A stretch of DNA of 64,000 bases from a virus. The position numbers and the translations under genes are program-made. Every line of letters starts with the position of its first letter. Positions within the stretch are counted from its first letter, which is position 1. Shown here piece by piece: positions 2,958 to 49,558 of the stretch. The notes under the pieces were generated by a model that searched no databases, had not been told where the DNA came from, and saw only the letters and a list, made by a program, of their open reading frames with translations. The DNA lies in IMG/VR virus record IMGVR_UViG_3300011271_000009, positions 2,076 to 66,075 of that record; one strand, written 5' to 3'.

Positions 2958-5404
2958 ACCAGAAACAGATTGAAGCCGCGATGCGCGGCAGGAATACCCT
3001 GCGTCAGGCCTGCAGGACAGACCTGTTCTTCCTATGCAAGGTGCTGGGCTATCCTGACGTCTGCTGGCGCGTCCACGGCCCGATCCTCGACGTCCTGCAG
3101 AAGTTCCCAGGCGGCGAGGACCACCAGAACAAGAAAACTGGCCTGCTGGAGTATCGTCCCTACAAGGAAATCTGGCAGCTTCAGGGCCGCCGCGAGAAGC
3201 TGATCCTCTACCCACGCGGCCATCTGAAGACCACAGTAGTCTCGCAGGCCCATGCCATCCAGTGGATCATTAACTACCCGGACATCCGCATCCTGCTCTC
3301 CTGCGCGACCGGCGACCAGGTGGAGAAGGTCATCCGTGCTATCAAGGGAGTCTTCCAGTACAGCGACGCGTTCCGTGCTGTTTTTCCTGATTTCTGCCCA
3401 CCGCGAGAGAAGGCCAGCGACTTTGGCAGCAAGGATCAGTTCATCGTCCCGGCCCGCAGGACCCCACGCGGCGAGCCTACGATGTTCGCTGTGACCGTGG
3501 GCAAGACCATCGCTGGCTACCACCCCGACGTGATCTTCCACTCCGACCTGGTGGACAAGGAGAACGTGAAGACGCCGGGCGGCATCCGCGACGTGATCGA
3601 GCACTTTCAATACATGGCACCCCTGCTGGAGCGCTATTCAGCCCGTGATGGTTATCCGGCCAGCCGGGGCTTCACTTTTGTCGAGGGCACACCCTACGAC
3701 TTCGGCGATCTGCATAACATGCTGATGAAGAACCCAGACTGGCATCCTGTAGTTAAGCCCGCTGCTAATCCCTATCCTCCGCGTACAGCTGCGGACATCC
3801 TGTGGCCGGAGCGCTTCCCGGCAGAGGAATTAGAACGCCTACGCCGCGAGATGGGCGACTGGATGTTTTGTACGCCTCACGAGACACCGATTCTAATGGC
3901 AGATGCCTCATTCAAACCCATCGGTGATGTAGCTATCGGCGATGTCGTTCTTGGGTGGGATGACAACGAAAGCAAGCCGCGACTGCGCAAGTCTAGGGTG
4001 TTAGATAAGGGCTTTATTGAAGCCGCCGATGTGCAGGAAATTACGATGGCGTCTGGCAGAAAGTTGACTGCGACCCCCGAGCACCTATGGCTGTCGGGTT
4101 GGCAGAGGAGAAAGGGCCACCATAGGCGGTATGCACAAGTCGGTGGTAAGTACCGCTCGGTTAATATGCTGTCTTTTGTTGACCACCCTGGCAATGAGGA
4201 GATGACTGCTGACCAGCAAAAAATGGCCCATAGGCTCTCAGGTCTTTTTGATGGCGAGGGATCGTTGACAGCTAAGGTAACGCTGAATTTCACCCAAGGC
4301 AACGTGAAGAACGCCGTTGTATGTGCCCGTATCGCGGATCACCTAACCGCTCTGGGGTTTTCTTATCAGCCATTCCATCGCAAATGTGCGAAGGCGCATT
4401 GGCAGCCGACAACTCTCTTTCAACTTCATGGAGGTTATCGGACTGTATTTCGCTTTATGCGGATGTGCGATCCAGCGAGACGCCAAGAGATCGTTGATCG
4501 GCTGCTGCCACACACAAGTCGGTTCACGCAACGCGACAAGGTTGTAAGTGTTAAGCCTGCAGGTAAGCGAAAGGTTTACTGGCTGACCACAGAAACTGGC
4601 AACTATGTTGCGTGGGGGTATGCCAGCAAGAACAGTGCCCAGTACCTGATGAAGTGCGTAGCCCAAGGCGATGGGCTCTGCGACCCCAAAGAGATCAAGT
4701 TCCTGTCGCACTCCATTGTGCGCGAGCTGCTGCCGCGTCTACGCCTACAGTGCATCATCGACCTTGCTGGAATGGAGAAGACCAGGGACGGAGATGACAC
4801 TGTGCTCACCGTCGCAGGCTTCGACCGCGATGGCCGGGCCATTGTGCCCGAAATCCACTGCGGCCAGTTCGCCCCCGAAGAGGTGATCGGGCTGATGTTC
4901 GATATCAAGCGGCGCTACCCCAGCCTGATCTGCTTCAAGATTGAGAAGGACTCCCATGCGCGTGTGCTGCTTCCATTCCTACAGCGGGAAATGTCGAAGC
5001 GGAATATCTACCTCAGCATCATCGAAATTAAGCGGGACACGCACACCTCGAAGCAGCAGCGCATTCGCGGCCTGCGCCCCTGGCTGAAGAACTCGCTTAT
5101 CACCTTCAGCGATGCCATTCCACTGACCACCAAGCAGAAGCTGCTGGACCAGGTCGCACAATTTCCTTCGCAATCGTCTGGAGTTCACGATGACATTCTC
5201 GATACGCTGGCCGACGCCATGCAGGACGGCGAGGGCGGTGTGACCGTGGACGTGGTCGCCGATCCGCCCGATATGAAGTTCGGGCAGTTTGGCGTTCAGC
5301 GCCCCCCAGACCGCTTCCTGGGCTTCGGCGAGGCAGGCGTCTCACGTTGGCTCTACGGCGAGGATGGCAAGCAGGACGTGCGCTCTATGACAGGACTCCT
5401 ATGA
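2954..5404 (+). CDS. terL: terminase large subunit with intein
   Basis: Walker A-like PRGHLKTT, Walker B-like [14 protein letters not shown] coupling motif, nuclease IIDLAG and [10 protein letters not shown]; directly upstream of portal. Confidence 0.92.
3869..4633 (+). mobile_element. intein (255 aa) with LAGLIDADG domain in terL
   Basis: N-terminal [23 protein letters not shown]-terminal [20 protein letters not shown] followed by Ser +1. Confidence 0.9.
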
Positions 5405-36019: not shown

Positions 36020-36210
36020 GGGCGTCTCCGCTTCCAGTTGTGGGCTAACCTCTTAGCCGTGCGCGGGCACATATCGTGCAGGCCGTGGCAGGTGCCGCAG
36101 TTCAGGCAGAGCTGCAGAATGCCCAGGCAGTTGGGGCACAGCCAGGCGGTCGCACGTCGGCTTATATAGGCGATAGTGCGCATCCGCAGATCGCAGGCAG
36201 GGCATCTCAT
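36016..36210 (-). CDS. Cys-rich zinc-finger protein
   Basis: CPAC, CPNC, CLNCGTC. Confidence 0.6.
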   Translation of the reverse strand: MRCPACDLRMRTIAYISRRATAWLCPNCLGILQLCLNCGTCHGLHDMCPRTAKRLAHNWKRRRP

Positions 36211-38216
36211 GCAGCCGCCTTGATCTCCAGCTCGCTGGTGTCCTGCAGGTTCTCGCCGATCTTCACCTCGACGCCGATGCTCAGCCCTCCCAGCTCCGGC
36301 CTGGGTCGGGACATGACTGTGCCCATCAGCTGGCCTACCCAGTCGGCCTCCGCCTTGGGCACCTCCAGCACGAAGCTGTCATGGATGATAAGGCGCATCC
36401 AGCTCATCACCTCGGGGGGCACCTCAGGACTATAGCCGATATGCAGCAGGTCCTCGGTCTGGATGGCACTGTTGTGCGAGAACATTCCATCAGAGATGTA
36501 AGTAGCTGTCGTTGTCTTGATGGCAATAACCTCCCCAACGCCATCAGACACGACTGCAGTAACTGCTGCAAAATCAGCGCCTGCCTTGCCGCCAGTTCTG
36601 CGATTTTCCCACAGCTGACGCGCTTTAGGCAGCAAGCGTGCAGGGCGGATCGTGCCCAGAAAGCGCAGTGCTTCGCGCATGGTACGCAACTCTCCACGCA
36701 TCTGGGTCCATGCTGGACGTATACGTCTCGCCCCCGGCGGGCAGGACTGTGACAGATTAAAATTGAAGCCACGTGCTTGAAGAAGATCGCACACATGGTC
36801 TAGCGTAGCTCCTCGGTTCTGCCCGAAGCCAACCCGAGTCTTCTGGCACCAGCCCTCCCCATCAAAGAAGCCTGCCAAGTAGCCACCATCCCGCGAATAA
36901 TCTCCATCCCATGGTTGGGATAAGTATGAAATGCGCGCTCCTGGCTTCAAATCTTGCGCCTTTGTCCAGTAGCGTCCCTTATAAGTTGGCCGTTCAGCCA
37001 AAAAAGGGTGTAACGCGCTGACGATAACAGTGCCACGTGTAGTATGCACACGCACACGCGGCAGGCGTAGCCGGTGCACCTCCAAGACAGAAGAAGCGCG
37101 AAATCTGCGGCCTGGAGTCCCCGCAGCATCCTCATCGAATCCGATGAGTTCATCTCCCACATTCACCGCATCGGCACGTGTCCAAGTCAGATCAGCCAAC
37201 AAGATTCGGCTATGAGGAGCCACACAGGCGTCAGATTGCGGTATAAACGCGATGCAGCGCTTGGCATCATTACCCAGCACCCAGGCCTTGCTCTCCGCTG
37301 CAGCAGGCCCCAGGCCCCGGCGCAGGGCATTCTGGTAGCGCTTCTGCTCCCAGCTGAACACGTCGTAGAAGCGGTGCCGGTACTGGTAATGATTATCGAG
37401 GAAGGTCTCCTTGTGGGCACGCATCCGCAGGTTGTTGGTGGCGCGCTCCACGCTGGGGAACAAATCCAGATAAGCCCGCTGCTGCTTAGTGGCCACAGCT
37501 ATAGTGGGGAACTCTTCCTGATACTCGTCGTGCATCCCGTAGGGGGTGAGCCCATAATTCGAAGCGTGGATCGTGCGCTTACAGCGGTCGTACAACTCAG
37601 GGTCCCGCTTCTTCCAGGCCTTGCACTGGCGCTGCAGCTCGGGGAAGGGCAGCTTGGAATCGATAGGCTGTCCGGCCACGTGGCTGGCGAAGAATCCATG
37701 CACCCCTGCCTTGGCCAGGCGGATCAGCTCCTGGTCCCCGCAGAGGAAGCCCATGAGCACAGCCTCGATGGCTGCGCTGTCAGCTTCCAGCAGCACACAG
37801 CCAGGAGAGGCGATCAGGGTGCGGCGGAACATGGCAGCTAGTTCTACCTTGTGAGGAATGGTCTGGAGGTTGACGTCCCTGGACCCTTTTCTCCAAGTCG
37901 AAGGCCACCATCCGTAAGTGGTATGGACACGCCCAGCAGCATCTAGTGGCCAGTTCAGATAGGTGCTGATGATCTTGCGGCGCTCACGGGCACGCCAGAC
38001 AGTCTCGAACACCGGCTGCTTCTTGCCGTAGCGCTTCAGGTACTTCGACTCGGTGGTCTCTCTATCGCTGCCCCGCTTCTTAGGTGGCTTCATGCCGAAG
38101 TGCTTGAACAAGGACAGCACCTGCAGCGGGCTGTGCGGATTGAAGGGCTCAGTGCGCTCGTAGGTGGAGACTACACCTGTATCCTTGCACTCCCGGCAGG
38201 CGTACTTGCTGGTCAT
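36207..38216 (-). CDS. DNA polymerase family A, polymerase-domain half, with intein
   Basis: PFNPHS, NLQTIP, motif A LLEADSAAIE, motif B KRTIHASNYG, motif C LIIHDSFVLE; ATGA-coupled start at 38216. Confidence 0.88.
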   Translation of the reverse strand: MTSKYACRECKDTGVVSTYERTEPFNPHSPLQVLSLFKHFGMKPPKKRGSDRETTESKYLKRYGKKQPVFETVWRARERRKIISTYLNWPLDAAGRVHTTYGWWPSTWRKGSRDVNLQTIPHKVELAAMFRRTLIASPGCVLLEADSAAIEAVLMGFLCGDQELIRLAKAGVHGFFASHVAGQPIDSKLPFPELQRQCKAWKKRDPELYDRCKRTIHASNYGLTPYGMHDEYQEEFPTIAVATKQQRAYLDLFPSVERATNNLRMRAHKETFLDNHYQYRHRFYDVFSWEQKRYQNALRRGLGPAAAESKAWVLGNDAKRCIAFIPQSDACVAPHSRILLADLTWTRADAVNVGDELIGFDEDAAGTPGRRFRASSVLEVHRLRLPRVRVHTTRGTVIVSALHPFLAERPTYKGRYWTKAQDLKPGARISYLSQPWDGDYSRDGGYLAGFFDGEGWCQKTRVGFGQNRGATLDHVCDLLQARGFNFNLSQSCPPGARRIRPAWTQMRGELRTMREALRFLGTIRPARLLPKARQLWENRRTGGKAGADFAAVTAVVSDGVGEVIAIKTTTATYISDGMFSHNSAIQTEDLLHIGYSPEVPPEVMSWMRLIIHDSFVLEVPKAEADWVGQLMGTVMSRPRPELGGLSIGVEVKIGENLQDTSELEIKAAA
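36471..37226 (-). mobile_element. intein (252 aa) with LAGLIDADG domain in DNA polymerase
   Basis: CVAPHSRILLAD start, YLAGFFDGEG, TYISDGMFSHN followed by Ser. Confidence 0.9.
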
Positions 38217-38905
38217 CCAGCTGTCCTGATAGGCACGTTGTAGATGCGCCCTAACTCCTCCAGCGAAGGATCGACCAGCCACAGCTCGGCGGGGTATGCG
38301 TACTGCGCCCGGTAGCCCAGCTTGCAGTCTTGCATGCGCCCCCACAGGTAGACTCTGCCGAAGACACGCAGATCGCCGAACTCGCTAACCACAGCCAAGA
38401 GGTCCTCCATGGCTTTGAAGCCCCAGAAGCCACAGAAGCAATGTTTCCGAGGCGGATCATTGCAAGGGTAATGGGTATCGCTTACCCCATAGAAGCTGTT
38501 TATAGGGGTAACGGCGGATGCTCCACTGATGCAGCGCGCTTCATTGCGCTTCTTCGGTTCCCAGGCATAAACAGGACGACCTACGCCCCGCAGCACCAGG
38601 GGAGACTCATTACGCACGAGCCAAGCCCGCCAGCCCATGATGGGCTCCATGTAATCGGGCGTCTTCTCCAGCACGCGGCGGGGCTCTGCCTTCTTCAACG
38701 CCTCCAGCAACTCAGGGCTGATTGCGGGAGGTAGCTGCGGCATCTGCAACCCTGCAGGGTTTGTTATCGAGGGCTGTGCTGAGGGCACTATATGCCAGGG
38801 AGACATGGCTTGTGGCTGTGGCGGCATAAGCCCACCCTGCGACATGGCTCCGCCGATCAGGCTCGACCAAAATCCACTGCTGAAGCTGTTCCTAGGGAGC
38901 GACAT
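38213..38905 (-). CDS. conserved phage hypothetical protein
   Basis: IMGWRAW...HCFCGFWGF...GRVYLWG...GYRAQYA. Confidence 0.7.
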   Translation of the reverse strand: MSLPRNSFSSGFWSSLIGGAMSQGGLMPPQPQAMSPWHIVPSAQPSITNPAGLQMPQLPPAISPELLEALKKAEPRRVLEKTPDYMEPIMGWRAWLVRNESPLVLRGVGRPVYAWEPKKRNEARCISGASAVTPINSFYGVSDTHYPCNDPPRKHCFCGFWGFKAMEDLLAVVSEFGDLRVFGRVYLWGRMQDCKLGYRAQYAYPAELWLVDPSLEELGRIYNVPIRTAG

Positions 38906-39050
38906 GGTCAGGCTCCTTTTCAGGCTCCAGCTGGGGCTGCTCTTGAGGCTTCTCAGCAGGCAGATCGCGCAGGGGTTCGGGTAACTCCAGCGGCTCGACG
39001 GTGATCTCGCGCAGCGGCTCGCCGATGGCTACGTTCAGGGGTGTGTTCAT
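38892..39050 (-). CDS. 52-aa Pro/Glu-rich peptide
   Basis: manual translation MNTPLNVAIGEPLREITVEPLELPEP...; GGAGG RBS. Confidence 0.6.
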   Translation of the reverse strand: MNTPLNVAIGEPLREITVEPLELPEPLRDLPAEKPQEQPQLEPEKEPDHVAP

Positions 39051-39060
39051 TTGGTGCCTC

Positions 39061-39282
39061 CTATTCGTCAGATGTTTCTGGTGGGTTGACTACGTCCTGC
39101 TGCGCAGCATTCCAACGCTCTATGGCGCAGTGTGTTGCGCACAAGCTGTAGCTGCCCATGTAGCAGCTTCGTCTACAGCGTGCGCCTGCCACCGTAAGCG
39201 CCTTGCAGCGATGCTTGTGGCATTTGCTGCAGATATCGGTGCCCAGGTCCCAGTCATGTGTGTTACCTCGGCAACTACTCAT
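39061..39282 (-). CDS. Cys/His-rich small protein
   Basis: CSKC, RCKA...RCRR...CATH. Confidence 0.55.
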   Translation of the reverse strand: MSSCRGNTHDWDLGTDICSKCHKHRCKALTVAGARCRRSCYMGSYSLCATHCAIERWNAAQQDVVNPPETSDE

Positions 39283-39601
39283 CGAGTTTCCTCCGCAGCT
39301 CCTCCAGCCCATCCTGCCAGCCGCACATATATGCGTGCCTCTGCGTATTGCGGATGAACTTGGCGATCAGGAAGCACTGCACAAGGCTGAAACCGCCGTA
39401 GACAGCCGCGCCTGCCCAAGCCCGTGCGTGGACGTCGAGGATGGTGATGGCGACGGTGAACGCAAGCATGACGAGCAGCACTCGCCCAGTCCGCACGGGT
39501 TTGATGCCCTCCTCGATTTGGTCATCGAGTTGTTTGCGGCGACCTGCCCAGATAACATCATCCGCCATGAGTTTGCGTCGTCTGAAGATTCGACCTAGCA
39601 T
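39275..39601 (-). CDS. membrane protein (2 TM)
   Basis: two hydrophobic segments; TAGGAGG RBS. Confidence 0.65.
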   Translation of the reverse strand: MLGRIFRRRKLMADDVIWAGRRKQLDDQIEEGIKPVRTGRVLLVMLAFTVAITILDVHARAWAGAAVYGGFSLVQCFLIAKFIRNTQRHAYMCGWQDGLEELRRKLDE

Positions 39602-39613
39602 GAATTTTGCCTC

Positions 39614-41113
39614 CTATGTAACCAGTGTGGTATCACGGCAGGCGCAGGGTTCCTCGATCCTGCGCACGCCGGTCATATCCTTGGGTTCCCGCTTCCAGTG
39701 CTTGCGGGGCTTTACTTCGTCCGGGACCTGGCCCTGCAGCTTGAGCAGGTAGGCCTCGTACTCTGCCTGCAGGCTGCTGGTCAGGGCTGTCCTGGCTACC
39801 TGATCGATGAGGATGCCTGCCTTCCCCATACGCTGCAGCAGCGGATCAGTCTTAGCGCAGTGGGCCACCCAGCGCTCCCAGCGTCCCTCGCGGATGAGCC
39901 CTTCCCTGATCCCGAGGTAGCAGCGGATTGTAGCATCGGAGTCAACCGCGGAGTACCAGGCAGGCTCCCCGGCAGCCAGGTGCTTCCAGGGCGGGCCATC
40001 GTAGTAGAAGGGAGCCACGAAGCCCAGCCCTTTGGGCAGGTCACTCTGCAGGAAGTGCCAGGCCCACATGGCATCATGAATCTCGCCTACCAGGCAGCCC
40101 GCAGCGATGAGCCTAGGCACGTCGTAGTGCGCATTCCAGAACACGGTGAGCTGAGCCGCAGCCAAGACTGCCCTCGTCAGCGAAATATACGGCTCCATCC
40201 AAGGCATCGTGACCGCAGTGCCCGGCGTATGGCTCAGGCTGATGCGCACGATGGTGTAGCTCTCGTCGTGCAGCTCATCGGCATCCTCTTCGAGGTAGGA
40301 GCTAGTAGGCGTCTCGATATCGGCGATCAGCAGCGGGATGGGCCGGGTGAGGCGGATGCTGACAGGTGCGGCTGGCGGCTGGGAATCCGCGTATGCGTCA
40401 AACCATGCTTGAGTTGGGCTGGCGGCTGGGCCGATCCCGGCTGGGGGTGTGGGATTCGCCGCCTTAACGGCGCTTTCTGTGAGACCTGTTGGTCTCACCT
40501 CAGCGCCTAAATACGCGCAGGCCTGCTCGAAGTTGTCGCAGACGTAGGAGACTGGCAACACCCGATGCTCGCCACGTGCCACCTCCTGCGCCCTGCGGAA
40601 GGCGAAGAAGATGGCGGCGCTGTATTTCTGATTGCCCTGCATCACGAAGCTGGGGTGGAAGGTGGGCACCACCGGGATGCCGTATTCGCTCTCATGCACA
40701 TAGGCGTGGCGGGCCTGCAGTCCGCTGACGCCGCACACCCGCTGCAGGGCCACGTTGCCCAAGGTGATGATGACCCTGGGCTGCATGGCTGATATCGCGT
40801 GGTCCAGGTAGGGACGGCAGTGCCGCAGCGCTTCGTAGGCTGCTGGGCTATCTGTCCAGCCCAGCTCTACGGGCTTGCACCACATCGAGTTTGCGATCAG
40901 GAAGGACTCGCGCTCACAACCCAAGCGGCGCAGGGTGCGATCCAGGTAAGCCCCGGCAGCCCCTGCAAAGGGCTTGCCCACGGCTACTTCCTCACGCCAA
41001 GGGCTGTCCCCAACGATAAGTATACCGTTGCTGCCGGTGCCGTCTGTGCCCACCAGACGCACACCACGTGCGTCCTGCGGGCAACCTGCGCAATGTGGGC
41101 CGCCTACCCTCAT
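39614..41113 (-). CDS. uracil-DNA glycosylase (family 4-like) fused to 3'-5' exonuclease: N-terminal half of split DNA polymerase A
   Basis: CAGC, IVGDSP, WCKP, HPSF (UDG); ADIET, NAHYD, YSAVD (Exo I-III); PLLQRMGKAGILID. Confidence 0.85.
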   Translation of the reverse strand: MRVGGPHCAGCPQDARGVRLVGTDGTGSNGILIVGDSPWREEVAVGKPFAGAAGAYLDRTLRRLGCERESFLIANSMWCKPVELGWTDSPAAYEALRHCRPYLDHAISAMQPRVIITLGNVALQRVCGVSGLQARHAYVHESEYGIPVVPTFHPSFVMQGNQKYSAAIFFAFRRAQEVARGEHRVLPVSYVCDNFEQACAYLGAEVRPTGLTESAVKAANPTPPAGIGPAASPTQAWFDAYADSQPPAAPVSIRLTRPIPLLIADIETPTSSYLEEDADELHDESYTIVRISLSHTPGTAVTMPWMEPYISLTRAVLAAAQLTVFWNAHYDVPRLIAAGCLVGEIHDAMWAWHFLQSDLPKGLGFVAPFYYDGPPWKHLAAGEPAWYSAVDSDATIRCYLGIREGLIREGRWERWVAHCAKTDPLLQRMGKAGILIDQVARTALTSSLQAEYEAYLLKLQGQVPDEVKPRKHWKREPKDMTGVRRIEEPCACRDTTLVT

Positions 41114-46504: not shown

Positions 46505-46674
46505 GCCGCTTCCTTGCATAAGGGGCACAGACCCCCGCTCAACCTGGTCTCGCGGCAGCGCCTGCCGCAGAGGCTGCACTTCGATTCTGGCTCGCGCCGT
46601 TCTGCCTTCTTTTGGAAGGCGCTGCTCCCCCGTTTTATACGCGCAGCGTGGTTATCTCTATGGCCCTTACCCAT
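46501..46674 (-). CDS. small basic zinc-finger protein
   Basis: MGKGHRDNH...CSLC...CPLC; overlaps the TROVE stop. Confidence 0.55.
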   Translation of the reverse strand: MGKGHRDNHAARIKRGSSAFQKKAERREPESKCSLCGRRCRETRLSGGLCPLCKEAA

Positions 46675-48007
46675 TGGAAGTCTCCGCCGCCCGGATGTAT
46701 TCCACGATGGCCTCGCTCCAGCCGTCGATATGGGTCCACTTGCCGTAGCCCACACCATTCTGGTAGCAGGCCACGTTCACCATGTAGCCGTGCTCGGCGA
46801 GGGGGGCACCCACAGAATCATGGGCCTGCTCATCGGTGATGACGATGATGCGGTCATAGTGGATGTTCTGCTGAGCAGCCAGCTGCTTGAGCTGCTGTAG
46901 GCTATGGCCGAGCTGCGTACCGCCGCTGTAGGCTGACCGGATCATGTTGGCCAGGGCAAAGCCGTGCCGGGGCGCAACTTCAGCAAGAGAGTCCGAGAAG
47001 GTGTAGACATCGCACTTCTCCACGATCTCGCGCAGAATGATGGCCAGTCCGCAGGCGGCATCCAGCCGGTCGATCTCGCTCTTGGCGCTGACCTTTGCCC
47101 CCACCATGGAGCCCGAGGTATCAATCACCAGTGCGGTGCGTCCAGGCAATGCTTCTGCGCCCTGCAGAACCCGCAACATAGCAGCGTCCAGCTCTCCCTC
47201 GAATACCGGGGCATGTTTGGCAGCGCTGATGAAGCGGAAGGGCAGAACCTGCCGGAAGGGTGCCAGCTGTAGGCAGCGCTCGATGAGGACACGGTCCACG
47301 CCGCAGTCGTGCATGTTGCGCAGATTGCGGAGCAGGGCCAGGTCGCCGAGCTTGCCTTCCTTGATGAGCCGGGTGAAGGTCTCCTTCTTGTCCTGACCGG
47401 CGCTGAGCGCCACTTCCCAGGTGTCAGGAGCAGGCAGCGTACCCTGCACCAGCTGCTTCCAGACTAGGGCTTGATCGCCATCCTTGGGCTTGGCGTGCGA
47501 CATGAAGAGGGCATCGCGCAGCTTCCAGGCTTCGTCGCGGTTGTACTTGGCCAGCCGGTAGGCGTCGAATTTGGTGAAGGCCTTGGCGATGCCCTTCTTC
47601 ACCTGGGCGCTGAGCGGCTGCCGCTTCTCCTTGTTGTAGATGGCCAGGAATTCGGTGATCTCGTCGGGCCGCTCGATCACCATCTCCAGGATATCGGCCA
47701 CCAGCAGCCGGTGCCCCTGGGGGCCGCGTGCCATCTCCCGTACCAGCAGGAGCGGCACATGGCGCAGGTGCATCTTGTGGCGGCACCAGACTGCCATATC
47801 GCCCACGGCTTTGGCGTCCACATGGGGCACCAGCTGGGCGATGCGTTCCCCGATCTCGACACCGTCCTCGTAGAAGGTGTCCTCCCACAGCAGGCAGGCC
47901 ATAGTGGACCGGCGTAGCTGTTGCTCCTCTGAGATGCGTTTGGCTGGGCCGCCTTCATGGGTGGCCAGGATGGGCGCGGAATGCCGCGCAGTGTTAAGAC
48001 GTGCCAT
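46667..48007 (-). CDS. rsr: Ro60/TROVE RNA-binding protein with vWA domain
   Basis: THEGGPA, LLWEDTFYE, KYNR, TWEVALS, ALLRNLRN, MIDAS IDTSGSM, IVITDEQ. Confidence 0.92.
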   Translation of the reverse strand: MARLNTARHSAPILATHEGGPAKRISEEQQLRRSTMACLLWEDTFYEDGVEIGERIAQLVPHVDAKAVGDMAVWCRHKMHLRHVPLLLVREMARGPQGHRLLVADILEMVIERPDEITEFLAIYNKEKRQPLSAQVKKGIAKAFTKFDAYRLAKYNRDEAWKLRDALFMSHAKPKDGDQALVWKQLVQGTLPAPDTWEVALSAGQDKKETFTRLIKEGKLGDLALLRNLRNMHDCGVDRVLIERCLQLAPFRQVLPFRFISAAKHAPVFEGELDAAMLRVLQGAEALPGRTALVIDTSGSMVGAKVSAKSEIDRLDAACGLAIILREIVEKCDVYTFSDSLAEVAPRHGFALANMIRSAYSGGTQLGHSLQQLKQLAAQQNIHYDRIIVITDEQAHDSVGAPLAEHGYMVNVACYQNGVGYGKWTHIDGWSEAIVEYIRAAETSNG

Positions 48008-48027: not shown

Positions 48028-48130
48028 TGTGGATATATCACGACTGCACAGCGAGGGGAAGGGTTGGAACCAACTTATCCACAGGGGTATTCCCGAAGTG
48101 GGAAGAAGTTCCCGTTATGGCACCACCACA
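48028..48130 (-). ncRNA. Y-RNA-like module G (degenerate)
   Basis: UGUGG/CCACA closing stem, UGGUGCC, ACUUCU. Confidence 0.5.
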
Positions 48131-48399
48131 CTGATCTTTTTAAGGCTGCACCGTGATGAGTAAGGGCCTTGGGACCCCTGGGCGGGCACGGTGCAGCCTC
48201 TTGTGCCGGTGATCCTCCCCGCCCAACCTTATGCTGCGCAGCTGTGTTTCTCTAGGGAAGCGTAGACAAACCCCGTGCTGCGCTCTCCGCAGCCACCATG
48301 CAACCACGCAACGACTTATTCCGGGATGCTTTGCGCACATTTGAAACTGCTGGGGGACTGCCAGGCCCCACAGCTTTCAGGTACATCCCGGAAACTTGC

Positions 48400-48522
48400 C
48401 TTTGGGAGAACGGTTGAAAGCAGCGTTGTCTTCGACCTCCGGTTTACAAACCCGGCGCTCTGTCTGAGCTATAGCGCCATACAAGCGGCGTTAGAAGTAA
48501 CTGCTTCCTGCACTACCCAAAG
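48400..48522 (-). ncRNA. Y-RNA-like module F with tRNA D arm and Thr(UGU)-like anticodon arm
   Basis: CUUUGGG/CCCAAAG, UAGUGCA, GUUACUUCU, GUUCU; UAGCUC-AGACA-GAGC; CCGG-G-UUUGUAA-A-CCGG-AGGUC. Confidence 0.72.
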
Positions 48523-48712
48523 TGAACTTGGTGAGCGCCAAAGCCTTGTCCGCTGTGCCATCGCTGGTATGGGTCTCTATCTCCCCCAGCAGGGCCTGCT
48601 TGGCTGGTCAGCCACTCGCTACCCACCGCTCACCAAACTTTGATGAGGCAGCGCCCGCGCCTCGCGGGGGAGTCCATCCCTGGATGTCTCCTGCGCTGCC
48701 CCATAACAGTGA

Positions 48713-48811
48713 TCCGAGGAATGGACGGCTGCAGTCTGCTGGGTGCGACCCCAGCCACTTGGATTGTGTCCAAGCTCTAGCCGAGAAGTATCTGCTGCCT
48801 TCACCATCGGA
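48713..48811 (-). ncRNA. Y-RNA-like module E with tRNA-core-like three-hairpin cargo
   Basis: UCCGA/UCGGA, UGGUGAA, AUACUUCU, AUUCC. Confidence 0.65.
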
Positions 48812-48820
48812 ACAGCGTTA

Positions 48821-48894
48821 GCAGCGGGGAACGGACGCCTTCGGAGCTGGTTTCTATTATGAGTAGAAGTAACCGAGGGCTGCACCACCGCAGC
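48821..48894 (-). ncRNA. minimal Y-RNA-like module D with CAU anticodon stem-loop
   Basis: UGGUGCA, GCCCUCGG/CCGAAGGC, UUCUA-CUCAUAA-UAGAA, GUUCC. Confidence 0.72.
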
Positions 48895-49030
48895 AAGGGT
48901 GTTTCTGGCAGCAGGCCGGTACGGTGGCGTTCAGTGACGTAGAGAGAGCTGCAGTCACTCCGTCAGTGTTCTCCGCACCCGCGAATACCGGCACACCGGA
49001 TTTAGAGCGTGCTTTGCTGCCAGAAAGTAT

Positions 49031-49176
49031 TCTGCGAGGAACGGATGCATCGGGGGTTTTCTGGCTCTGCTGCTCTAGCCGACTGAGCTACGCCTCCCAC
49101 TGGGGGCGGCGGCTGGATTTGAACCAGCGACCTACAGCTTTGCTATAGAAGTAACCCGCTGCTGCACCATCGCAGA
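49031..49176 (-). ncRNA. yrlA: YrlA-type Y RNA (module C)
   Basis: Ro-stem scaffold enclosing T arm GCUGG-UUCAAAU-CCAGC, a hairpin-closed acceptor stem, then D arm UAGCUCAG...GAGC (permuted tRNA order). Confidence 0.82.
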
Positions 49177-49184
49177 GATGCTAA

Positions 49185-49264
49185 CTGTGGAGAACAGTTG
49201 CGGTCGGGTGAGCCTTGCGGCCCTTCTTTTCAAGAGAAGTATCCGACTGCTGGCACTACCACAG
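49185..49264 (-). ncRNA. Y-RNA-like module B with UGA(Ser) anticodon stem-loop
   Basis: CUGUGG/CCACAG, UAGUGCCA, CUUCU-CUUGAAA-AGAAG, GNRA hairpin, GUUCU. Confidence 0.72.
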
Positions 49265-49275
49265 CGGTAAAGCTA

Positions 49276-49453
49276 TGCTAGGGAAGATTGCTCGGCGTGG
49301 CCTCCAGTACTCATAGCGCGTGGCTGGCCGTGTCACAGCCCTTTGGACTCGCGGCTACGTCTCCCTTGGCCGACTCTCCCCCCATCGACGCTGGGGGCTG
49401 CCAGCGCCTATGGCGGGGGAGTTTTGAAGTAACGCCTTGCTGCACCACTAGCA
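49276..49453 (-). ncRNA. Y-RNA-like module A with large multi-hairpin cargo
   Basis: UGCUAG/CUAGCA, UGGUGCA, GUUACUUC, UUCC. Confidence 0.68.
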
Positions 49454-49529: not shown

Positions 49530-49558
49530 ACCCTACGCCTGTTTTCTGAAAGCGTCAA
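49530..49558 (-). promoter_or_regulatory. sigma70-like promoter for RNA array and Ro60
   Basis: TTGACG-N17-TAGGGT. Confidence 0.6.

What the first reader, a model, noticed from the sequence alone, without database searches (positions are those of the whole stretch)
48028..49453. Array of at least seven Y-RNA-like modules with interchangeable cargo upstream of phage Ro60
From one promoter (49530-58) the minus strand carries modules at 49276-453, 49185-264, 49031-176, 48821-894, 48713-811, 48400-522 and 48028-130. All share a closing stem, U(G/A)GUGCA-like, a second stem, (G/A)UACUUC(U), cargo, and a 3' GUUC(C/U)-like element (degenerate in the last module). Stem sequences differ but pairing is kept. 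Only module C is a typical YrlA (permuted T, acceptor and D arms); the others carry different domains. Bacterial rsr loci typically have one or two Y RNAs, and Y RNAs are known to tether Ro60 to effectors such as PNPase. This looks like a modular Ro60 RNP toolkit in a phage.
Basis: partly seen in the sequence, partly recalled or inferred. Interest (0 to 1): 0.9.

Follow-up and report, generated by a model that had tools for sequence, protein, structure and literature searches.

The report
Y RNA gene array beside phage Ro60
A soil phage carries, just upstream of its Ro60 gene, a row of five to seven small RNA genes that share one Ro60-type docking "handle" but have different bodies. It is a large example of the known Ro60/Y-RNA partnership, and the same cassette turns up in many other phages and in soil Acidobacteria.

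Summary
On the minus strand, 48400-49453, six units (A-F) share one scaffold. It runs: closing helix P1, bulged U, two pairs (RG with CY), internal loop (5' YGNA, 3' GNYURUU), 8-bp helix P2, WUACUUC, variable cargo.

My covariance model scores B-F at 43-64 bits, A at 18 bits, and G at only 7 bits (E 0.31). That gives five solid units, one probable and one degenerate.

The next gene is a true Ro60 (TROVE plus vWA domains; nearest solved structure is the Thermus phage phiLo Ro60).

The scaffold is a diverged form of the YrlA/YrlB Ro60-binding module. Relatives carry GGCGAAG, the published GNCGAAN0-1G motif, and UUAC matches the published YUAY. Only unit C has the YrlA-type tRNA-like body, and it stays below Rfam's threshold.

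The array is not unique and not phage-specific. The model found 526 further units in 186 Ro60 loci, every one on the Ro60 strand:
- Caulobacter phage CcrColossus has 8.
- Xanthomonas phage Tenjo has 5.
- Acidobacteriota chromosomes commonly have 5-6, one of them with RtcB embedded in the array.

Expression and Ro60 binding are untested, and I found no RNA data. I found no paper describing such arrays. This scan has flagged similar handle-RNA arrays on other DNA before.

Verdict: a new variant of a known kind, of moderate interest.

The parts
49530..49558 (-). Putative promoter (TTGACG, 17 nt, TAGGGT) in the divergent intergenic region
   Evidence: Read from the sequence. The consensus scan does not call it. 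Inferred only.
49276..49453 (-). Unit A: handle with a weakened P2 and a 128-nt multi-hairpin cargo
   Evidence: R1 17.9 bits, E 2.7e-4. Fold z-score -2.66. The cargo has no sequence relatives.
49185..49264 (-). Unit B: handle (UAG...UUCU variant) with two small hairpins; YrlB-like short unit
   Evidence: R1 54.8 bits. Descriptor hit. Fold z-score -2.5.
49031..49176 (-). Unit C: handle with a YrlA-type permuted tRNA-like body (V hairpin, T arm, acceptor-like stem-loop, D arm)
   Evidence: R1 44.1 bits. Rfam YrlA 36.2 bits, E 1.2e-5, at 49066-49136, below the gathering score of 69. It is the only cargo with sequence relatives in other loci.
48895..49030 (-). Spacer CD: 136-nt structured RNA closed by a 12-bp stem, without a handle
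   Evidence: Fold z-score -3.31. No Rfam match and no sequence relatives.
48821..48894 (-). Unit D: handle with one small hairpin; YrlB-like
   Evidence: R1 63.9 bits, the best in the window.
48713..48811 (-). Unit E: handle (UGGUGAA loop) with three hairpins
   Evidence: R1 51.0 bits. Fold z-score -2.06.
48523..48712 (-). Spacer EF: two structured domains, without a handle
   Evidence: Fold z-score -3.08. No relatives.
48400..48522 (-). Unit F: handle (UAG...UUCU variant) with a cloverleaf-like cargo of a closed hairpin, a D-arm-like hairpin and an anticodon-arm-like hairpin (loop UUUGUAA), but no T arm
   Evidence: R1 42.8 bits. Weak Rfam tRNA match, 21.9 bits, E 0.21, at 48421-48478. Folds. 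The tRNA reading is tentative.
48134..48399 (-). Spacer FG: three structured domains, without a handle
   Evidence: Fold z-score -2.66. Contains a 66-aa ORF (48140-48340) that I did not test.
48049..48133 (-). Unit G: degenerate handle-like element (UGGUGCCA ... CCCUUCC with a 6-of-7 closing helix)
   Evidence: R1 only 7.4 bits, E 0.31. Fold z-score -1.6. Not established.
46667..48007 (-). Ro60 (TROVE plus vWA) gene, 446 aa
   Evidence: Pfam TROVE 56.2 bits and VWA_2 31.3 bits. PHROG 850 'RNA-binding protein', E 1e-40. PDB 9KOP/9L5Y (phiLo Ro60) E 9e-23 over residues 14-443, and 2NVO (Deinococcus Rsr) E 9e-4.

Best explanation
The 1.5-kb non-coding stretch upstream of the phage Ro60 gene is a tandem array of Y RNA genes of the bacterial YrlA/YrlB type.

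I infer that it is transcribed together with Ro60, or just ahead of it, as one precursor. Host RNases would then cut the precursor at the 8-11-nt linkers into separate RNAs of about 70-180 nt.

Each RNA closes on itself through a common handle: P1, a bulged U, two pairs (RG with CY), a conserved asymmetric internal loop, P2, and a UA kink followed by CUUC. This handle is the docking site for the phage Ro60 ring.

The variable body sticks out from the handle. The bodies are short hairpins (B, D), a permuted tRNA mimic (C), a possible second tRNA-like shape (F), and multi-hairpin bodies (A, E). The body either gates the Ro60 cavity or brings Ro60 to different RNA-handling proteins of the host, as Yrn1 and YrlA do with PNPase.

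Ro60 plus its array behaves as one mobile cassette, shared between phages and Acidobacteriota chromosomes.

Shown here: the handle, its covariation, its exclusive linkage to Ro60 genes, and its kinship with YrlA. Inferred: transcription, processing, Ro60 binding and effector recruitment.
For: 1. Handle and covariation. Five units score 43-64 bits and A scores 18 bits. P1 and P2 pair in 90.9% of cells, against 56% for shuffles and 36-49% for slid controls. The second base of the 5' loop covaries perfectly with the last base of the 3' loop: GC 70, AU 9, no exceptions. The next pair is GC 77, CG 2. Within the window, B and F use A-U where A, C, D and E use G-C.

2. Linkage to Ro60. R1 hits number 77 in the other phage and viral loci, 170 in 80 metagenome loci and 274 in 80 genome loci. 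All are on the Ro60 strand and next to the gene. A stricter descriptor gives 406 hits on the Ro60 strand against 11 on the opposite strand. None of the window's other neighbouring genes is conserved in the 186 loci.

3. Kinship with YrlA.
- The 5' loop in relatives reads GGCGAAG, which is the published GNCGAAN0-1G motif (PMC4201824).
- UUAC directly after P2 matches the conserved YUAY and UA kink (bioRxiv 10.1101/312249).
- The 3' loop GCUUGUUCC resembles cUuGucGcc in the Rfam YrlA consensus.
- Units in several arrays hit Rfam YrlA below threshold: 36.2 bits here, 55.9 and 38.8 in Tenjo, 42.3, 30.5 and 29.9 in CcrColossus.

4. The protein is a real Ro60.

5. Precedent.
- Y RNAs are made from polycistronic precursors next to rsr in Mycobacterium smegmatis and Deinococcus.
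- phiLo Ro60 binds two upstream Y-like RNAs and forms a complex with host PNPase (PMC12135203).
- Three very abundant RNAs lie upstream of an Rsr-like gene in Listeria phage CKA15 (PMC12282133).

6. In L006, L011, L020 and crAss001 the arrays lie downstream of Ro60. That fits separate RNA products better than a leader.
Against: - There is no expression or end-mapping data for this phage. Only soil DNA runs hold it, plus one run of uncertain type.
- No unit reaches Rfam's YrlA gathering score.
- The window's own 5' loop (GGUGCAG or AGUGCAG) does not literally match GNCGAAN0-1G.
- Ro60 binding is inferred from gene linkage and from motif likeness.
- The promoter fails the consensus scan and no terminator was found.
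- The pairing statistics are inflated, because seeds were selected for pairing and the alignments are fitted to the model.
- Three structured spacers (CD, EF, FG) carry no handle and are unexplained.
Confidence: 0.8

Rival explanations
1. The handles are cis-acting Ro60-binding sites in a long, structured 5' leader of the Ro60 mRNA. They would serve autoregulation or mRNA stabilisation, not yield free small RNAs.
For: The array is directly upstream of Ro60 on the same strand. No terminator-like site separates them. Degenerate unit G abuts the ribosome-binding site.
Against: The same handle arrays lie downstream of Ro60 in L006, L011, L020 and crAss001. In one Acidobacteriaceae chromosome an RtcB gene separates them from Ro60. 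Unit C is a YrlA-type tRNA mimic, and characterised YrlA and YrlB are free RNAs cut from precursors.
Confidence: 0.07
2. The handle is recognised by something other than Ro60, for example a host processing or tRNA-handling enzyme. The units would act as tRNA-like decoys or processing substrates that merely travel with Ro60.
For: About half of all units carry T-arm and/or D-arm motifs. Two loci have complete tRNA bodies with the handle in place of the anticodon arm. Ro60 binding is untested.
Against: Across 186 loci, Ro60 is the only gene found constantly beside the handle. The conserved 5'-strand motif is the one implicated in Ro60 and Rsr recognition.
Confidence: 0.08
3. The array is partly decayed baggage. 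The phage picked up a host rsr cassette, and only one or two units (for example C and D) still function.
For: A is weak and G is degenerate. The cargos of A, E and F and all three spacers have no detectable relatives. The nearest Ro60 relatives, at 57-61% identity, include many Acidobacteriota chromosomes.
Against: B-F keep intact, covarying handles. In relatives about 95% identical, unit B and its linkers are unchanged and all differences fall in the V hairpin and T loop of C. Arrays of similar size persist across distant phages.
Confidence: 0.05

Closest known systems
Bacterial YrlA/YrlB Y RNAs of rsr loci (Salmonella rsr-yrlBA-rtcBA, Mycobacterium smegmatis; Chen et al. 2014, PMC4201824; Rfam RF02553)
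   Same: - They are encoded next to Ro60 on the same strand, several per locus, and made from one precursor.
- The 5' and 3' ends pair into a Ro60-binding stem that carries a conserved 5'-strand motif (GNCGAAN0-1G). A second stem follows, then a conserved YUAY.
- One RNA carries a permuted tRNA-like body (T arm, acceptor-like stem-loop, D arm). Others are short hairpins (YrlB type).
- Some cellular relatives of this clade have RtcB in the locus.
   Different: - There are five to seven units here, not two.
- The window's loop reads GGUGCAG or AGUGCAG, not GNCGAAG.
- The region Rfam draws as a full helix is here a bulged U, two pairs and an asymmetric loop, with a further closing helix P1 outside it.
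- No unit reaches the Rfam threshold.
- Bodies A, E and F fit neither the YrlA nor the YrlB type.
Thermus phage phiLo Ro60 with Yrl1 and Yrl2 (PMC12135203; PDB 9KOP, 9L5Y)
   Same: It is a phage-encoded Ro60 with Y-like RNAs upstream of the gene. It is the closest solved structure to this protein (E 9e-23). Binding and a complex with host PNPase have been shown in vitro.
   Different: phiLo has two RNAs, found by their CGAA motif. The proteins are only about 25% identical. I did not test whether the phiLo RNAs have this handle.
Deinococcus radiodurans Rsr with Yrn1 and Yrn2, and the Rsr/Y RNA/PNPase machine
   Same: These are modular Y RNAs in which the handle binds Ro60 and the body binds an effector (the KH and S1 domains of PNPase). 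They are polycistronic with a tRNA.
   Different: It is a separate Y RNA lineage with a metazoan-like bulged helix. The sequence match to Rsr is only weak (2NVO, E 9e-4).
Metazoan Y RNAs (human Y1, Y3, Y4, Y5; nematode stem-bulge RNAs)
   Same: Several paralogous Y RNAs share one Ro60-binding bulged helix and differ in their loop domains, which bind different proteins.
   Different: They are unrelated in sequence, are separate Pol III genes, and have no tRNA-like bodies. This comparison rests on my general knowledge and was not tested here.

Membership tests
Ro60 / TROVE protein | TROVE domain | tested here: met
   PF05731, 56.2 bits against a cut-off of 23. Confirmed again in the genome search.
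Ro60 / TROVE protein | C-terminal vWA domain | tested here: met
   VWA_2, 31.3 bits against a cut-off of 27. The specific vWA_Ro60 model scores 24.3 bits, below its cut-off of 27.7.
Ro60 / TROVE protein | Full-length likeness to a solved Ro60 ring | tested here: met
   phmmer against the PDB: 9KOP/9L5Y, E 9e-23 over residues 14-443. I did not predict the ring fold itself.
Y RNA (general) | Encoded close to Ro60 on the same strand | tested here: met
   The units lie 42-1450 nt upstream on the minus strand. All 526 other family members are also on the Ro60 strand.
Y RNA (general) | 5' and 3' ends pair into a stem that holds a conserved Ro60-binding motif on the 5' strand | tested here: met
   P1 and P2 covary. 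The conserved loop is UGGYGNA. The R-Y pair covaries perfectly.
Y RNA (general) | Bound by Ro60; accumulates as a discrete small RNA | not testable with these tools
   No RNA runs hold this phage. The complex predictor handles protein partners only.
YrlA (Chen et al. 2014; Rfam RF02553) | Score at or above the Rfam gathering threshold (69 bits) | tested here: not met
   No hit at the gathering threshold. Unit C scores 36.2 bits as a local match to model positions 23-87. Relatives also stay below threshold.
YrlA (Chen et al. 2014; Rfam RF02553) | Permuted tRNA-like domain: T arm, acceptor-like stem-loop, D arm | tested here: met
   Met for unit C only (alignment; motifs). Not met for A, B, D, E, F or G.
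YrlA (Chen et al. 2014; Rfam RF02553) | GNCGAAN0-1G motif near the 5' end | tested here: inconclusive
   Window units read GGUGCAG, AGUGCAG or GGUGAAG, so there is no literal match. At the same position many relatives read GGCGAAG, an exact match.
YrlA (Chen et al. 2014; Rfam RF02553) | Conserved YUAY (UA kink) after the anticodon-like stem | tested here: met
   WUAC follows P2 directly. Over 79 units: U 100%, A 87%, C 100%. The feature is described.
YrlB-type short Y RNA | Handle with a long hairpin and a small loop; no tRNA-like domain | tested here: inconclusive
   B and D (74-80 nt) fit the description. No curated model exists to test against.

The most novel reading that the evidence does not exclude
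The Ro60 handle is a portable docking unit that evolution grafts onto tRNA-shaped bodies in at least three topologies:
- at the anticodon-arm position with a closed acceptor (YrlA type, unit C);
- possibly at the T-arm position, leaving an anticodon-like loop exposed (unit F);
- as a closed hairpin replacing the anticodon arm of an otherwise normal tRNA with free acceptor ends (L006, L011).

On this reading, a phage-borne array of such adaptors lets one Ro60 ring be aimed at several different host tRNA-binding or RNA-processing enzymes. It could also decoy tRNA-directed defence nucleases during infection.
Probability: 0.2. Interest if true: 0.8.

Novelty: new variant of a known kind. Interest (0 to 1): 0.5.

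Why it matters
Ro60 and its Y RNAs are conserved from bacteria to humans, yet what the variable part of a Y RNA does is known for very few cases. Arrays of five to eight Y RNAs with one handle and different bodies amount to a natural set of swapped cargos on a constant docking site.

The arrays sit in cultivable phages (CcrColossus on Caulobacter, Xanthomonas phage Tenjo, crAss001), so each body's partner could be found by pull-down. That would make it possible to test directly why phages carry Ro60.

There is also a practical gain. These RNAs fall below Rfam's YrlA threshold and go unannotated, leaving 1-2.5-kb 'empty' gaps beside Ro60 genes in phage and Acidobacteriota genomes. In CcrColossus part of one unit is annotated as a tRNA-Gln. 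The covariance model built here would let them be annotated.

Tried and rejected
- Rfam at gathering thresholds found nothing in the window. It found no YrlA in 18 viral loci or in 20 Acidobacteriota loci.
- ARAGORN finds no tRNA in the window.
- blastn and nhmmer with the cargos of A, E and F, unit B, unit G, the three spacers and the promoter region found no relatives in 106 loci. Only the tRNA-like body of C has relatives.
- tblastn with eight neighbouring proteins of the window against 186 loci found nothing, so no conserved partner gene other than Ro60 emerged.
- Two sequencing-run searches found no RNA run. Laying four runs showed only the likely source samples and short contigs from relatives about 95% identical, which is no evidence of expression.
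- A third helix, CUUC pairing with a downstream GAA(G), appears in the minimum-energy fold of only about half the units that carry the motif (93 of 183). I do not claim it as part of the handle.
- A sigma-54 promoter, as in the Salmonella rsr operon, is not evident by eye upstream of the array.
- The review PMC10870794 is not held, and the supplementary tables of Chen et al. 2014 are not held. I therefore could not check how many RNAs they listed for CcrColossus.
- A weak handle-like hit on the opposite strand (48917-48980, 9.9 bits, E 0.057) is treated as chance.
Full report
THE SETTING

The window is most of a 67.1-kb viral contig with direct terminal repeats, estimated complete. It comes from soil metagenomes. 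It encodes an integrase and a family A DNA polymerase, so it looks like a temperate tailed phage.

The ORF at 46667-48007 (minus strand, 446 aa) is a genuine Ro60:
- Pfam TROVE 56.2 bits and VWA_2 31.3 bits.
- PHROG 850 'RNA-binding protein', E 1e-40.
- Full-length match to the solved Ro60 of Thermus phage phiLo, 9KOP/9L5Y, E 9e-23.

Upstream lie 1.5 kb without a credible gene. Beyond them is a plus-strand DUF3631 gene starting at about 49613.

THE OBSERVATION

On the minus strand, units A-F each begin and end with complementary stretches.

The pattern GTGCA-N5-14-WTACTTC occurs four times in 64 kb, all in the array, against 0.10 expected. Minimum-energy folds give the same closing architecture for A-F, with z-scores from -1.35 to -3.04.

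I wrote a descriptor for the scaffold. I then built covariance model R1 from 22 short units, two from the window and 20 from related loci.

R1 scores in the window:

| Unit | Bits | Note |
|---|---|---|
| D | 63.9 | |
| B | 54.8 | |
| E | 51.0 | |
| C | 44.1 | |
| F | 42.8 | |
| A | 17.9 | E 2.7e-4 in a local search; P2 has two mismatches |
| G | 7.4 | E 0.31; best bounds 48049-48133 |

R1 finds nothing elsewhere in the window. So there are five firm units, one probable and one degenerate.

No terminator-like site lies on the minus strand between the array and Ro60.

THE HANDLE

Over 79 model-aligned units the consensus is:

P1 (7 bp) - U - R - G - Y - G - N - A - P2 (8 bp) - W - U - A - C - U - U - C ... 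P2' - G - N - Y - U - R - U - U - C - Y - P1'.

P1 and P2 pair in 90.9% of cells. Shuffles give 56% and slid controls 36-49%. All 15 pairs show changes on both sides (the seed alignment gave 92.7%). These figures lean high, because seeds were chosen for pairing and the alignment is fitted to the model.

A cleaner signal comes from the 'loop', which was not constrained. Its second base covaries perfectly with the last base of the 3' loop: G-C 70, A-U 9, no exception. The next pair is G-C 77, C-G 2. So P1 continues past a bulged U for two more pairs. In the window, B and F carry A-U (UAG...UUCU) where A, C, D and E carry G-C.

KINSHIP WITH KNOWN Y RNAs

Chen et al. 2014 define YrlA RNAs by three features (PMC4201824):
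- a 5' GNCGAAN0-1G motif thought to contact Ro60;
- a conserved YUAY;
- a permuted tRNA-like domain (V, T, acceptor-like and D arms).

The YrlA crystal study places a conserved UA kink at that YUAY (bioRxiv 10.1101/312249).

In relatives of this phage the 5' loop plus the first base of P2 often reads GGCGAAG, an exact match. The window's GGUGCAG is a diverged version at the same position. UUAC or AUAC follows P2 directly. The 3' loop GCUUGUUCC resembles cUuGucGcc at the corresponding place of the Rfam YrlA consensus.

Unit C matches Rfam YrlA over its T, acceptor-like and D arms: 36.2 bits, E 1.2e-5, against a gathering score of 69. Units in other arrays do likewise: Tenjo 55.9 and 38.8 bits; CcrColossus 42.3, 30.5 and 29.9 bits. 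None passes the threshold, in phages or in Acidobacteriota.

I therefore read the handle as a diverged YrlA/YrlB Ro60-binding module. I do not file the units as Rfam YrlA members.

HOW COMMON IT IS

I collected relatives of this Ro60:
- 21 IMG/VR contigs;
- 83 GenBank phage records, five of which I fetched;
- more than 546 metagenome contigs, of which 80 were kept;
- 138 species genomes, of which 80 were kept, nearly all Acidobacteriota.

Besides the window's five, R1 found 77 units in the phage and viral loci, 170 in the metagenome loci and 274 in the genome loci. Every one is on the Ro60 strand and beside the gene. A stricter descriptor gives 406 hits on the Ro60 strand against 11 on the other strand.

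Units per locus:
- Caulobacter phage CcrColossus: 8.
- IMG/VR contig L003: 6.
- Xanthomonas phage Tenjo: 5.
- Brevundimonas phage Marchewka: 4.
- Many Acidobacteriota loci: 5-6 within 3 kb. Typically there is a cluster, then a gap, then one unit of about 135 nt just before Ro60, much like this window.

In L006, L011, L020 and crAss001 the units lie downstream of Ro60.

The Acidobacteriota loci are cellular. They are flanked by MsrB, an ABC transporter ATPase and an M16 peptidase. In one Acidobacteriaceae chromosome an RtcB ligase gene sits between units, which recalls the Salmonella rsr-yrlBA-rtcBA operon.

None of the window's other neighbouring genes recurs in any of the 186 loci. Ro60 plus array is therefore the conserved, mobile unit. 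The array is a trait of the clade, not a phage invention.

THE BODIES

Among 229 units:
- 107 are short hairpins, median 81 nt, like B and D.
- 60 have T-arm and D-arm motifs, about 135 nt, of the YrlA type like C.
- 50 have a T-arm motif only.
- 12 have a D-arm motif only. Most of these turn out to be YrlA-like with an odd T loop.

Unit F stands apart. CUUC/GAAG closes a cloverleaf of a closed hairpin, a D-like arm and an anticodon-like arm (loop UUUGUAA), with no T arm. The tRNA score is weak (21.9 bits, E 0.21), so this reading is tentative.

The bodies of A and E and the three spacers CD, EF and FG fold better than shuffles (z -2.1 to -3.3). They have no detectable relatives. The spacers carry no handle and remain unexplained.

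MECHANISM

Most likely (0.8), these are Y RNAs that dock on the phage Ro60 through the handle.

By analogy with characterised systems, I infer the following. Those systems are the polycistronic precursors in M. smegmatis and Deinococcus, the Rsr/Y RNA/PNPase machine, and phiLo Ro60 with Yrl1/Yrl2 and host PNPase. The array would be transcribed as a precursor and cut at the short linkers. The different bodies would gate Ro60 or tether it to different host RNA enzymes.

Three very abundant RNAs upstream of an Rsr-like gene in Listeria phage CKA15 show that phages do express such RNAs at high level.

Expression, processing, binding and partners are all untested for this phage. I found no RNA data.

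The rival readings are less likely, mainly because of the arrays found downstream of Ro60, the exclusive linkage to Ro60, and the intact covarying handles. Those rivals are a cis-acting leader, a handle read by another protein, and decayed baggage.

NOVELTY

Known already:
- Ro60 with Y RNAs in bacteria and phages. Chen et al. report YrlA-like RNAs in 22 phages.
- At least two Y RNAs per characterised species.
- Modular handle and effector domains.

I found no paper describing any of the following:
- arrays of five to eight units;
- this handle sub-family, which Rfam misses;
- its spread as a cassette through phages and Acidobacteriota;
- the range of bodies.

The scan itself has flagged similar handle-RNA arrays beside Ro60 or Ro60-like genes on other DNA. 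One is a five-unit bacterial array with the same UGGCG/UUCC signature.

I class this as a new variant of a known kind, interest 0.5.

Noticed in passing
L011:5700-5827 and L006:3953-4075 (a second one starts near L006:4090): These are ordinary-looking tRNA bodies with a free acceptor stem, a D arm and a T arm. Their anticodon arm is replaced by a hairpin-closed copy of the same Ro60 handle (P2', 3' loop, P1 hairpin, 5' loop, P2, WUACUUC). They score 43-45 bits with the Rfam tRNA model and lie inside Y RNA arrays downstream of Ro60. Only these two turned up when I searched the 106 loci held at that point, plus the window.
   Followed up: partly
L183:1548-2777 (Acidobacteriaceae chromosome OY970199.1): An RtcB RNA ligase gene (Pfam E 1e-129) sits between handle units and Ro60. 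The locus is flanked by ordinary cellular genes. This links the clade to the rsr/RtcB RNA-repair operons.
   Followed up: partly
L025:3173-3240 (Caulobacter phage CcrColossus, NC_019406): The record's 'tRNA-Gln' overlaps the 5' half of a handle unit (R1 hit 3167-3335, sub-threshold YrlA hit 3208-3304). ARAGORN does not call a tRNA there. It is probably a Y RNA body annotated as a tRNA. The 1.4-kb gap upstream of gp139 holds eight handle units.
   Followed up: partly
window 48895-49030, 48523-48712, 48134-48399 (minus strand): Three strongly structured stretches lie between the handle units (fold z-scores -3.3, -3.1, -2.7). They have no handle, no Rfam match and no relatives. They may be further RNAs of unknown kind. 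A 66-aa ORF (48140-48340) lies in the last one.
   Followed up: partly
window 48917-48980 (plus strand): A weak handle-like match lies antisense to the array (9.9 bits, E 0.057): UGGCG..., ...UGUUCU, and a 6-of-7 closing helix. It lacks UACUUC. Probably chance.
   Followed up: no
window 49085-49285: Short contigs in two other runs (one soil run, one of uncertain type) are about 95% identical to this stretch. Unit B and its linkers are unchanged. All differences fall in the V hairpin and T loop of unit C (UUCAAAU becomes UUCGAGU).
   Followed up: partly
L028:7791-8048 (Brevundimonas phage Marchewka): A permuted tmRNA (Rfam RF04321, 57.2 bits, above threshold) lies about 2.4 kb downstream of the phage's Ro60, among tRNA genes. 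It is not annotated in the record.
   Followed up: no
window 36207-41113 (minus strand): The family A DNA polymerase seems split over two ORFs. The 499-aa upstream ORF has a UDG-superfamily domain and a DNA polymerase PHROG match. The 712-aa ORF carries the DNA_pol_A domain.
   Followed up: no
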